DNA of 10,877 nucleotides from positions 1 through 10,877 of the forward strand of contig CBDDTI010000735.1 in the NCBI GenBank assembly GCA_965233585.1, given 5' to 3'. Of this stretch, positions 8,131-9,165 are shown one piece after another. This DNA comes from a bacterium (GTDB lineage: Bacteria > SAR324 > NAC60-12). The translations under genes and the position numbers were made by a program. The notes beneath the pieces were generated by a model. That model searched no databases. It saw only the letters and a program-made list of their open reading frames with translations, and had not been told where the DNA came from. The first letter of the stretch is position 1. The number at the start of each line of letters is the position of its first letter.

Positions 8131-9165
8131 TTACCTAGCCTGGTTGAAGCAAAACTCGCAGGTATTTAGGTGGAGCAAGTACGAAGGCTGGAACAAAAGA
8201 TTGATACTATGTTCTTGTAAGATATCCCTCAGCAACGGTTCAACTTGGTGTCCGTGGTGAAACCCACAGTTATCCATCATGATACAGTCACCGAGTTCCA
8301 GAATTGGTGAGCCATCTGGTCTTTCTACTGCTAAAGCCTTATTGAAAAAGTTCAGCATTTCCATTCCATTAGAAGCGCCCTATTGTAGCAATCAACTCCT
8401 TGTATTGAGTGAAGCAGGTTTAGCGTTTAGTTCGCGTTCGAGGCGTAGTGCTGTACTTCGAGGGCAGGCTCGCCGATATATGAATTACCGTATACACAAT
8501 TTCCTGAAGTAATTTTGACACCGGACCCATCAAAAAAGTGAAGTGTAGTACAGTCTAGTTGCGCAATTTGATCAAGTACGTCTGACAATGACTCCGTCCG
8601 TAGTTGGCTAAGTTTTTTCTTCATCATAAAACAATCCTCTCGAACGCACTTTTTTTTATTGCACTTTGAGATGGCAAAAGATGAGGTGGCGAAACTCCAT
8701 CCAGCAATAAACGCTGTTGAAGTTCAGATGTGTATGTGCTGGGCTTGCACAATTTCTCGGATCCTATGTAATCAACAACGTCTTGTGTAACAACATTACA
8801 AGCCGCTAATTTTCGCGTCGGAGGAAGAGACGCGTTGTTGTCCACATAGTTTTGAACAACTTTATTGATATAGCCAATACTAACTCGCGCTGTGCCTGAA
8901 ATTTGTCTTTAAAAAAAACCCTGGTGGTGGAGATCAAGAATTCTCTCTCAATAAATATTTGGTAACGAGCTTCCATTGTCGTAGATGCCTTGCTGTTGAT
9001 TGATCCTGAGATTACACTGACCTAATTATTTCAAGACAAATAATAGAAAGTCATGTTTTCGTTCTCCAAAAGAGCTTAAATTCAACAAAAGTATCTAAAA
9101 ATGCTCCTGTTTAGATGAAAGTAGTACTTACTGGTATAATTTGCGGGAGCGTGGGCAGTAGTCAT
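8131..9165 (-). pseudogene. Paired-domain (Pax-like) DD38E transposase pseudogene with one predicted intron
   Basis: Paired-like domain 9004-8651; LHFFD (D at 8531-8529), IMMDNCGFHH (D at 8274-8272), QPSYLLHLNTCE (E at 8157-8155; 38 residues between D and E). Stops at 8950, 8911 and 8429; frameshifts near 8655 and 8382. Confidence 0.88.
9022..9131 (-). other. Predicted 110-nt phase-1 spliceosomal intron
   Basis: Donor A|GTAAGT at 9131, T-rich tract, acceptor TTAG|GT at 9022. Splicing joins ATG(9165) MTTAHAPANYT-S-QCNLRINQ in frame with the paired domain. Confidence 0.72.

What the first reader, a model, noticed from the sequence alone, without database searches (positions are those of the whole stretch)
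8651..9004. Transposase carrying a complete, ungapped Pax-type paired domain (PAI + linker + RED)
Seen: the minus strand reads INQQQGIYDNGSSLPNIY*ERILDLHHQGFF*RQISGTARVSIGYINKVVQNYVDNNASLPPTRKLAACNVVTQDVVDYIGSEKLCKPSTYTSELQQRLLLDGVSPPHLLPSQSAIKK and continues, after one homopolymer frameshift, into a DDE catalytic domain. The ORF track hides the first half behind two stops. Against the PAX2 paired domain recalled from memory (VNQLGGVFVNGRPLP...RIVELAHQG...ISRQLRVSHG...VATPKVVDKI...EIRDRLLAEG...PSVSSI) I count about 39/118 identities with no gaps, covering the N-terminal beta-hairpin (NQ..G...NG..LP) and the RED subdomain. The first stop (TGA) falls at a conserved Arg, consistent with CGA decay. 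Established: the paired domain is proposed to derive from Tc1/mariner transposases, though canonical Tc1 proteins resemble it only loosely. Inference: this family is a close mobile relative of the proto-Pax transposon, or a transposon that recaptured a Pax domain.
Basis: partly seen in the sequence, partly recalled or inferred. Interest (0 to 1): 0.9.

Follow-up and report, generated by a model that had tools for sequence, protein, structure and literature searches.

The report
Dead coral transposon with Pax domain
This is a broken copy of a jumping gene from a coral-like animal whose enzyme grips DNA with the same kind of domain as the Pax developmental regulators; its large family, which still has unbroken members, could help test the old idea that Pax genes came from a transposon.

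Summary
Window 8651-9004 (minus strand) translates exactly as quoted. With X at the stops it matches Pfam PAX across both subdomains (E 2.4e-15, profile 4-122 of 125). Against a bird Pax2 it gives 39/118 identities with no gaps.

The stretch is part of a dead, end-truncated copy (7324-9156) of a Tc1/mariner-type DNA transposon. It lies on a eukaryote-like (anthozoan) contig binned with a bacterial genome.

Intact relatives are about 350 aa, with a paired domain and DDE_3 in one ORF. All 22 intact locus ORFs hit PAX and 21 hit DDE_3. Of the 120 best database clusters, 117 carry both domains. Relatives have CAGTG-terminated inverted repeats and TA flanks.

In a paired-domain tree, 37 Pax factors separate from 54 transposase domains with 100/99 support. 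Capture from a sampled living Pax class is therefore not supported. The root and backbone are unresolved.

Pax-like transposases were already used as a Pax outgroup in 2015 (PMC4901127), and databases auto-label this family. I score it as a new member of a known kind, of moderate interest.

The parts
7324..9156 (-). Whole relic of the transposon. It corresponds to positions 321-1365 of the 1671-bp sibling element C95:11897-13567, so both ends with their inverted repeats are missing.
   Evidence: blastn of sibling elements against the window
8651..9007 (-). Paired domain (N-terminal hairpin motif, PAI, linker, RED) of the transposase. It is broken by TGA at 8948-8950 and TAA at 8909-8911. Another TAA lies just upstream at 9026-9028.
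   Evidence: PAX E 2.4e-15; 39/118 identities to Pax2, no gaps
8650..8657 (-). A8 homopolymer run where the reading frame changes between the paired domain and the linker
   Evidence: sequence; frame change from -2 to -1 in the tblastn alignment
8382..8669 (-). Linker and first part of the DDE domain, including the first catalytic Asp (HFFD, codon 8529-8531). It has an 8-residue deletion and an in-frame stop at 8427-8429. A second frame change follows near 8380.
   Evidence: tblastn of P0002 against the window
8134..8379 (-). DDE core with the second Asp (MDNCGFHH, codon 8272-8274) and the Glu (NTCE, codon 8155-8157), 38 residues apart
   Evidence: DDE_3 E 8.9e-7; spacing counted on the alignment and on P0004 (D264, E303)
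8204..8405 (-). Segment kept in the window copy but deleted in the three sibling copies of the same genome bin (C607, and two in C95)
7528..8109 (.). 582-bp MITE-like repeat inserted into the transposase reading frame. It has about 12-15-nt terminal inverted repeats (GCGCACACAC...) and ATA on both sides. Many copies occur on other contigs of the bin.
   Evidence: searches (copies; inverted repeat I5; junctions), sequence
7415..7525 (-). C-terminal tail of the transposase (...EAVSKI...FRNCG..L), followed by the rest of the 3' untranslated part down to 7324
   Evidence: (73% identity to P0002 residues 382-415)

Best explanation
Window 7324-9156 (minus strand) is a dead, end-truncated copy of a cut-and-paste DNA transposon of the IS630/Tc1/mariner kind. 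It comes from an anthozoan-like animal genome whose contig was binned with a bacterial genome.

The element's single protein, about 350 aa when intact, has an N-terminal Pax-type paired domain (hairpin motif, PAI, linker, RED). This is followed by an RNase-H-like DDE domain with 38 residues between the second Asp and the Glu.

Inferred mechanism for intact members, from what is established for Tc1/mariner transposases such as Mos1 and Sleeping Beauty: the paired domain binds the element's terminal inverted repeats (about 59-90 bp, starting CAGTG). The DDE domain then cuts the element out and inserts it at a TA, which is duplicated.

The window copy can do none of this. It has stops, two frame changes, a deletion, a foreign 582-bp insertion and no ends.

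Evolutionarily, the paired domain appears to belong to this whole transposase family by descent. It was not captured from a sampled living Pax class. Pax factors and these transposases share a paired-domain ancestor.
For: SHOWN - identity of the two domains
- PAX and DDE_3 hits on the window itself.
- Ungapped 123-residue phmmer alignments of the intact relative P0004 to PAX8, PAX5, PAX6 and Prd (E 6e-15 to 2e-10).
- The profile of 29 family members scores PAX8 at 4.9e-26 but the Sleeping Beauty PAI subdomain only at 1e-7.

SHOWN - one ORF
- 22/22 intact locus ORFs hit PAX; 21/22 hit DDE_3.
- 11/11 members of alignment A1 hit both.
- 117/120 listed clusters carry both.

SHOWN - fold
- The AlphaFold model of P0004 (mean pLDDT 80.8) has 3+3 helices followed by a mixed sheet domain.
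- Foldseek ranks full-length Mos1 first (E 8e-12). Then come Pax5 (7e-9, 34% identity), PAX6 and the Sleeping Beauty catalytic domain (1e-7).

SHOWN - mobility hallmarks in relatives
- L008 and L016 share 2851 bp at 98% identity with unrelated flanks, 59-bp inverted repeats starting CAGTGAGG, and TA on both sides.
- Sibling copies in the same bin (C607:2469-4652, C95:11897-13567) have 75-90-bp inverted repeats with TA|CAGTGCGG ends.

SHOWN - decay of the window copy.

SHOWN - host
- All 13 organism names attached to listed relatives are anthozoan: Oculina, Porites, Pocillopora, Orbicella, Dendronephthya, Paramuricea.
- Window contig ORF cover is 0.19, against about 0.85 on the bin's large contigs.
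- A scan of 185,579 prokaryote species genomes confirmed 0 relatives among 52 pattern matches.

SHOWN - descent rather than recent capture
- The Pax factor versus transposase split has 100/99 support and is present in all 200 bootstrap trees.
- DNA-binding and DDE identities co-vary over 406 pairs (r 0.89).
- Every transposase lineage is Pax-like: 41-82 bits on PAX.
- Each lineage is on average as close to Pax factors (28-36% identity) as to the other transposase lineages (25-31%).
Against: - The window copy has no inverted repeats or target duplication, so its own mobility is inferred only from siblings.
- No binding or transposition was tested.
- The hairpin is supported by sequence only (N12, G16, G21 and P25 of P0004 align with Pax). 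In the model, residues 1-20 have pLDDT 39-51.
- More distant family members match PAX only from profile position 13-22, so they lack the hairpin.
- The tree is unrooted and built on 129 columns, and its bootstrap had not settled (correlation 0.941).
- The Pax rows are only those among the 150 best hits of one search. They were thinned by hand from 65 to 37. Source names were seen for six of them. Two (P0121, P0188) were called Pax factors from tree position alone.
- An ancient capture from a stem Pax gene, before the family diversified, cannot be told apart from common descent.
Confidence: 0.85

Rival explanations
1. Recapture: a Tc1-like transposon replaced its own DNA-binding domain with the paired box of a host Pax gene, so the similarity is secondary.
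For: The core family's DNA-binding domain is closer to Pax2 (35%) than to the same domain of distant members of its own family. That figure is 21-28%, although the DDE domains of those members are 50-59% identical. The hairpin motif is present in the core family but missing in the most distant lineage.
Against: The sampled Pax factors exclude all 54 transposase domains with 100/99 support. All three transposase lineages are Pax-like: 22/22 hit PAX. Each lineage is about equally distant from Pax factors. This fits slow-evolving Pax factors at the centre of a star, not one recent donor. A two-part helix-turn-helix DNA-binding domain at the N-terminus is the standard Tc1/mariner layout: Mos1 aligns over the full length.
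Confidence: 0.1
2. It belongs to the already described Intruder (DD38E) family of Tc1/mariner transposons, so nothing about it is new.
For: It has the same 38-residue spacing between the second Asp and the Glu. Intruder is reported from one cnidarian species (PMC7731502, passages read).
Against: Intruder is described as a close sibling of DD34E/Tc1 with GRPR motifs. Here no GRPR is visible in the linker of the aligned members. The 29-member profile does not find the Sleeping Beauty catalytic domain even at E<=10, and finds the SETMAR transposase domain only at E 0.13. No Intruder sequence was available for direct comparison.
Confidence: 0.05
3. It is a decayed host Pax gene, or a domesticated Pax-like gene, that merely lies next to an unrelated transposase fragment.
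For: Public annotation calls some relatives Pax genes, for example 'Paired box pox-meso [Paramuricea clavata]'. Paired-only products also exist (P0019, P0007).
Against: The two domains are one uninterrupted ORF in intact relatives. The family is multi-copy with inverted repeats and TA flanks. PAX scores are 33-82 bits, against 170-436 bits for the 59 true Pax factors scanned. No homeodomain or Pax2_C hit occurs in any family member scanned. The paired-only products are internal-deletion forms that keep the transposase C-terminus.
Confidence: 0.02
4. It is a bacterial IS630-type insertion sequence of the bacterium whose genome this bin represents.
For: The record is filed as a prokaryote genome. 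DDE_3 also covers IS630.
Against: The contig has low ORF cover (0.19), like 696 other small contigs (median 0.13 in a sample of 150). The bin's five largest contigs have 0.83-0.86. The contig also carries a reverse-transcriptase fragment. No relative was confirmed among prokaryote species genomes. All named relatives are anthozoan.
Confidence: 0.02

Closest known systems
Pax transcription factor paired domain (Pfam PF00292; solved for PAX5 1k78, PAX6 6pax, PAX8 2k27, Prd 1pdn)
   Same: It has the same length and order of hairpin motif, PAI, linker and RED. Alignments are ungapped over 118-123 residues at 33-35% identity. The family profile scores E 4.9e-26. The fold matches Pax5 and PAX6.
   Different: It scores 33-82 bits on the PAX model, against 170-436 for true Pax factors. 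It falls outside the Pax clan in the tree. It is fused to a DDE transposase rather than an octapeptide or homeodomain. It is multi-copy and flanked by inverted repeats.
Tc1/mariner (IS630-Tc1-mariner) transposons such as Mos1 and Sleeping Beauty
   Same: It has a single ORF, an N-terminal two-part helix-turn-helix domain and a C-terminal DDE domain. Full-length Foldseek matches to Mos1 give E 8e-12, and the Sleeping Beauty catalytic domain gives 1e-7. Relatives have CAGTG-type termini and TA flanks. It hits DDE_3.
   Different: The DNA-binding domain is far closer in sequence to Pax (E 1e-26) than to the Sleeping Beauty PAI subdomain (1e-7). Many members have the Pax hairpin motif. The catalytic spacing is DD38E. 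The catalytic domain is not detectably similar in sequence to Sleeping Beauty.
Paired-domain-like transposases of acorn worm and oyster used as the Pax outgroup by Burglin & Affolter 2015 (PMC4901127)
   Same: They are transposases whose DNA-binding region aligns with the paired domain well enough to root a Pax tree (passages read). The placement outside Pax factors is the same as found here.
   Different: Those are bilaterian, and only about 100 residues (C-terminal PAI plus RED) were used. No accession or sequence was visible to me: a text search of the supplements for 'transposase' found nothing. Whether they are the same family as the anthozoan one is therefore untested.
Intruder (DD38E) Tc1/mariner family (PMC7731502)
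   Same: It has the same DD38E spacing, a transposase of 341-379 aa, and TA-type Tc1/mariner organisation.
   Different: Intruder is described as a recent sibling of Tc1 with GRPR motifs. This family lacks a visible GRPR and shows no detectable sequence similarity to the Sleeping Beauty catalytic domain.

Membership tests
Paired domain (Pfam PAX, PF00292) | Significant match to the family model above its curated cut-off, spanning both PAI and RED | tested here: met
   Window copy: 57 bits against a cut-off of 22, profile 4-122 of 125. Relatives: 11/11 and 22/22.
Paired domain (Pfam PAX, PF00292) | N-terminal beta-hairpin/turn motif ahead of PAI | tested here: inconclusive
   The sequence motif N..G....G...P aligns ungapped with Pax and is conserved in the core family. 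The model has pLDDT 39-51 there. Distant members match PAX only from profile position 13-22.
Paired domain (Pfam PAX, PF00292) | Two three-helix subdomains joined by an extended linker | tested here: met
   The model of P0004 has helices 26-37, 42-49, 53-66 and 84-96, 102-111, 123-133. Foldseek gives Pax5 E 7e-9 and PAX6 2.7e-8.
Pax transcription factor genes | Paired domain groups with the Pax classes; octapeptide and/or homeodomain present; host gene rather than a repeat | tested here: not met
   It lies outside the Pax clan with 100/99 support. No Homeodomain or Pax2_C hit occurs in family members. It is multi-copy with inverted repeats.
Tc1/mariner-type DNA transposon | DDE/D catalytic domain with an RNase-H-like fold | tested here: met
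   DDE_3 hits. D, D and E are present in the window copy and nearly invariant in 29 members. Foldseek matches Mos1, Sleeping Beauty and SETMAR.
Tc1/mariner-type DNA transposon | Terminal inverted repeats and TA target-site duplication | tested here: met
   Met in relatives L008 and L016 and in sibling copies C607 and C95. Not met in the window copy itself, which lacks both ends.
Tc1/mariner-type DNA transposon | Demonstrated excision and integration | not testable with these tools
   There is only indirect evidence: 98%-identical copies at different sites.
Intruder (DD38E) | 38 residues between the second Asp and the Glu | tested here: met
   D264 and E303 of P0004. Codons 8272-8274 and 8155-8157 in the window.
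Intruder (DD38E) | [quoted passage not shown] | tested here: not met
   No GRPR is visible in the aligned linkers. The profile finds no Sleeping Beauty catalytic domain at E<=10. No Intruder reference sequence was compared directly.

The most novel reading that the evidence does not exclude
The anthozoan PAX+DDE elements are surviving members of the very transposon lineage that gave animals the paired domain. On this reading, the complete domain, hairpin included, existed in a mobile transposase before Pax genes. Pax factors are the slow-evolving centre of that radiation: every transposase lineage is as close to Pax as to the other lineages. Some members still have intact reading frames, so the proto-Pax step, a paired domain recognising transposon ends, can be rebuilt at the bench with living material.
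Probability: 0.3. Interest if true: 0.8.

Novelty: new member of a known kind. Interest (0 to 1): 0.5.

Why it matters
The idea that the Pax paired domain came from a Tc1-like transposase dates from 2000 (Breitling & Gerber, seen only as cited in PMC4901127 and PMC5737492). It rests mostly on loose similarity to canonical Tc1 proteins.

This family offers a much better comparison. It is large and the database holds unbroken reading frames for many members. Its DNA-binding domain aligns with Pax end to end without gaps, at E about 1e-26 for the profile. It has defined inverted repeats.

That makes two things directly testable. One is whether a paired domain recognises transposon ends the way Pax recognises its sites. 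The other is where Pax roots among the transposases.

There is also a practical point. These elements are annotated as Pax genes in public coral genomes (for example 'Paired box pox-meso'). Pfam PAX counts of 57-61 in Hydra genomes sit beside high DDE_3 counts (PMC7642931). Such elements may explain counts like these; that link is my inference and was not tested. The window also shows that a 'prokaryote' genome bin can hold megabases of host DNA.

Tried and rejected
- translated the wrong frame. One search corrected it.
- The word-based search restricted to the paired region of P0004 returned only close family members and no Pax factor, so it could not serve for the tree. The exhaustive profile search was needed.
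- The genome-contig scan confirmed nothing: 52 pattern matches, 0 relatives.
- Naming by cluster look-up gave few names. One of the 10 clusters asked about carried an organism name. In one search, 7 of 10 clusters carried a source entry, 6 of them with an organism. The taxonomic range therefore rests on a handful of anthozoan names and on the Atlas's 'commonest Cnidaria'.
- A search for inverted repeats around the window copy found none that match the family's ends. I conclude that the window copy is truncated.
- The tree backbone could not be resolved, so I make no claim about which transposase lineage is nearest to Pax.
- The 309-aa antisense ORF in the 3' half of the L008-type element has no convincing Pfam family. 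It has only a 15-residue, E 0.011 match in the window. I dropped it.
- Literature searches that found nothing: 'Pax-like transposase'; 'paired box domain' + transposase + DDE; PF00292 + PF13358. PMC10027918 has no mention of PAX.
- Earlier notes of this scan held no look-alike of this protein.
- Complex prediction, sequencing-run and read-mapping tools were not used.

Full report
1. THE OBSERVATION

Read with X at the stops (P0001, 8624-9040), it matches Pfam PAX at E 2.4e-15 and 57 bits, against a curated cut-off of 22. The match covers profile positions 4-122 of 125, and no other family reached E<=1.

A tool-supplied bird Pax2 (P0176) aligns at 39/118 identities with no gap (E 8e-19).

The TGA at 8948-8950 falls on an Arg that is invariant in 29 of 29 aligned family members. 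It aligns with Arg in Pax2. A sibling copy has CGA there.

Downstream, 8131-8379 (-) hits DDE_3 at E 8.9e-7.

2. ANATOMY OF THE WINDOW COPY

tblastn of the closest intact relative (P0002, 415 aa as predicted) maps four pieces:
- Paired domain in frame -2, 9046-8639, at 74% identity.
- Linker and first DDE part in frame -1, 8669-8382. It has an 8-residue deletion and a stop at 8427-8429.
- DDE core in frame -3, 8379-8134, at 83% identity.
- C-terminal tail in frame -2, 7525-7415.

The first frame change is in the A8 run at 8650-8657. The second is near 8380.

Between 8109 and 7528 lies a 582-bp insertion. It has short terminal inverted repeats (pair I5) and ATA on both sides. It is repeated on dozens of other contigs of the bin.

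The three catalytic residues are still readable: D at 8529-8531, D at 8272-8274 and E at 8155-8157. There are 38 residues between the last two.

Compared with a sibling element that has both ends (C95:11897-13567, 1671 bp), the window copy covers only positions 321-1365. Both terminal inverted repeats are absent anywhere in the 10.9-kb contig. It is a relic.

3. SIBLINGS IN THE SAME BIN

Three more copies, about 86% identical, lie on C607 and C95. All three lack the segment 8204-8405 of the window, which holds the second Asp.

C607:2469-4652 and C95:11897-13567 keep 75-90-bp terminal inverted repeats that begin CAGTGCGGACACTCGAACC and are flanked by TA. The third copy (C95, homology starting at 16020) is truncated on the left. 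It keeps only its right-hand repeat, at 17046-17098, which is also TA-flanked.

They look like non-autonomous deletion derivatives. The window copy descends from a full-length form.

4. WHERE THE DNA COMES FROM

The record is a 12.0-Mb 'prokaryote' bin of 747 contigs, and the window is the whole of contig C735.

The five largest contigs have 0.83-0.86 of their length in ORFs of 150 aa or more. A sample of 150 of the 696 contigs under 30 kb (7.1 Mb in all) has a median of 0.13. C735 has 0.19.

The window also holds a reverse-transcriptase fragment (RVT_1, E 3e-5).

Every organism name attached to a listed relative is anthozoan. A scan of prokaryote species genomes confirmed no relative: 0 of 52 pattern matches.

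So this is host (coral-like) DNA binned with a bacterium. Earlier notes of this scan call the bacterium SAR324-like; I did not check that.

5. THE FAMILY

Intact proteins of about 350 aa carry PAX and DDE_3 in one frame. All 11 members of alignment A1 hit both, with best E 1.7e-19 for PAX. Transposase helix-turn-helix families reach only about 1e-3.

A metagenome scan found 153 relatives, and 80 loci were kept. Of 22 intact ORFs taken from them, 22 hit PAX (41-82 bits) and 21 hit DDE_3.

With the 29-member profile, the word-indexed database gave 371 clusters at E<=1e-10. Of the 120 listed, 117 carry both Pfam families. The ESM Atlas holds clusters auto-named 'DDE superfamily endonuclease/Paired box domain-containing protein' with 173, 64 and 101 members, commonest in Cnidaria.

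Mobility hallmarks are as follows. L008 and L016 share 2851 bp at 98% identity but have different flanks. The element is 2846 bp with 59-bp inverted repeats starting CAGTGAGG and TA on both sides. Loci L008-L012 are one and the same site in different records and count once.

6. FOLD

The AlphaFold model of P0004 was built on 29 sequences (mean pLDDT 80.8, pTM 0.57). It has two three-helix bundles and then a mixed sheet/helix domain. Residues 1-20, which hold the hairpin motif, are of low confidence.

Foldseek against the PDB ranks full-length Mos1 transposase first (E 8e-12). Next come Pax5 (7e-9, 34% identity over 122 columns), PAX6 (2.7e-8), the Sleeping Beauty catalytic domain (1e-7), Prd and SETMAR.

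By sequence, the 29-member profile scores PAX8 4.9e-26, PAX5 8.7e-26, PAX6 7.6e-25 and Prd 6.2e-22. The Sleeping Beauty PAI subdomain scores 1e-7 and the SETMAR transposase domain 0.13. The Sleeping Beauty catalytic domain does not appear at E<=10.

7. ANCESTRY OR CAPTURE

A profile of the paired part alone (A2) was run against 1.84 billion representatives. It gave 1901 hits at E<=1e-3, 839 at E<=1e-10 and 30 at E<=1e-30. True Pax factors score about 80-86 bits, E about 1e-18.

Of 66 hits of 200 aa or more scanned with Pfam, 59 are Pax factors (172-436 bits on PAX). Five are transposase-type (33-64 bits). Two have no PAX hit.

The first tree was a quick one. It used the 109 domains that cover at least 113 of 129 profile positions, out of 211 domain hits. 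It split 42 transposase rows from 65 Pax rows, with two long-branch rows (P0109, P0187) between them.

The second tree was a careful one of 91 rows:
- 37 Pax rows, thinned by hand from 65.
- 29 transposase-type database rows, also thinned by hand.
- 25 locus ORFs of at least 320 aa.

It puts all 37 Pax rows on one side of a branch with UFBoot 100 / SH-aLRT 99. All 200 bootstrap trees agree. The bootstrap had not settled (correlation 0.941).

The transposase side has three deep lineages:
- A core of 39 rows, which includes the window.
- P0109 plus L036.
- A hairpin-less group, together with L055 and P0187.

Their order relative to Pax is unresolved (84/71 and 40/5). There is no root.

Two further points argue against a recent capture. 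First, DNA-binding-domain and DDE identities co-vary over 406 pairs (r 0.89; the pairs are not independent). Second, every transposase lineage is on average as similar to Pax factors (28-36%) as to the other transposase lineages (25-31%), while Pax factors are 74% alike among themselves. This pattern is expected if slow-evolving Pax factors and fast-evolving transposases radiate from one paired-domain ancestor.

An ancient capture before the family diversified cannot be excluded. The Pax sample is also limited. Source names were seen only for Pax-1-like, Pax-5-like, Pax2, an oyster 'Pax-6-like', a nematode and a mayfly protein.

8. WHAT IS KNOWN

Passages read in PMC4901127 state that the paired domain resembles Tc1-like transposases. 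They also state that four bilaterian transposases (acorn worm, oyster) were used as the outgroup of a Pax tree. Its supplements held no text on them.

PMC7642931 tabulates 57-61 PAX domains in Hydra genomes beside 365-481 DDE_3 domains, without comment in the passages I saw. PMC13548663 reports a tblastn match (e 3e-9) between Drosophila toy and a library Tc1/mariner transposase, confined to the helix-turn-helix region. PMC12486386 and PMC5737492 only restate Breitling & Gerber 2000, which I did not read.

Intruder (DD38E; PMC7731502, passages) shares the spacing. It is described as a Tc1 sibling with GRPR motifs, which this family does not show. Direct comparison was not possible.

I found no paper that describes the anthozoan family as a transposon family. 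Subscription journals and Repbase were not searchable.

9. VERDICT

The copy in the window is a dead relic in host DNA.

The family is large and includes intact open reading frames. It is already auto-annotated in databases, and transposases of this kind were noted in print in 2015. The claim that it stands close to the proto-Pax transposon is compatible with all tests run here, but it is not proven, because the tree has no root.

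Noticed in passing
window 7528-8109: A 582-bp MITE-like repeat with about 12-15-nt terminal inverted repeats (GCGCACACAC...), an internal 19-nt perfect palindrome (7881-7923) and ATA on both sides. 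It is inserted in the transposase frame. Dozens of full or partial copies at 67-92% identity lie on other contigs of the bin.
   Followed up: partly
G000 contig C745, about 583000-620666: A contig that looks bacterial for 580 kb (ORF cover 0.8-0.95) ends in about 37 kb with almost no long ORFs (0-0.04). That part holds a copy of the same MITE-like repeat at 585878-586447. It is probably a chimeric join of bacterial and host DNA.
   Followed up: partly
G000 as a whole: About 7.1 Mb of the 12.0-Mb 'prokaryote' bin (696 contigs under 30 kb) has eukaryote-like ORF density: median 0.13 in a sample of 150. The listed contamination is nevertheless only 2.09%. Marker-based checks evidently do not see host DNA.
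   Followed up: partly
window 85-1770 (+): Frame-shifted fragments of a retroelement: RVT_1 at 724-939 (E 3e-5, below the curated cut-off). This is followed by an ORF with a Cys-rich ...CYIGKTKRRL... stretch that I recall as GIY-YIG-like (Penelope-type). That motif was not tested.
   Followed up: partly
window 9157-9500: A different multi-copy repeat abuts the 5' break of the relic. It includes short tandem GGCAGCGGA(A/G)G units at about 9190-9240 and a repeated ...CACCTCATTAGTATGGAGGAA... motif. About 20 matches lie on other contigs.
   Followed up: no
C607:2469-4652; C95:11897-13567; C95 from 16020 to 17098; proteins P0019, P0007: Internal-deletion forms keep the paired domain and the C-terminal tail but lose the DDE core. 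They recur both in this bin and as predicted proteins elsewhere, for example a 208-aa 'Paired domain-containing protein' of Porites evermanni. They could be mistaken for small Pax genes. They might also act as DNA-binding-only competitors of the transposase.
   Followed up: partly
L008:4467-5393 (-): The 2846-bp L008-type element carries a 309-aa open frame in its 3' half, antisense to the transposase. The frame is coiled-coil-like with a CX2CX4HX4C-like stretch and has no convincing Pfam family. A related stretch lies on C348 of the bin.
   Followed up: partly
protein P0318 and others: A PAX+DDE_3 transposase of Paramuricea clavata is named 'Paired box pox-meso' in public records. An Atlas cluster of 173 such proteins is auto-named 'Paired box protein 1-like protein'. 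Pax gene counts in cnidarian genomes may be inflated by this family.
   Followed up: no
protein P0009 (Oculina patagonica, 439 aa): One predicted protein joins leucine-rich repeats (LRR_8, E 1.5e-9) to the PAX+DDE_3 transposase. This is likely a gene-model fusion across an insertion, but it was not examined.
   Followed up: no
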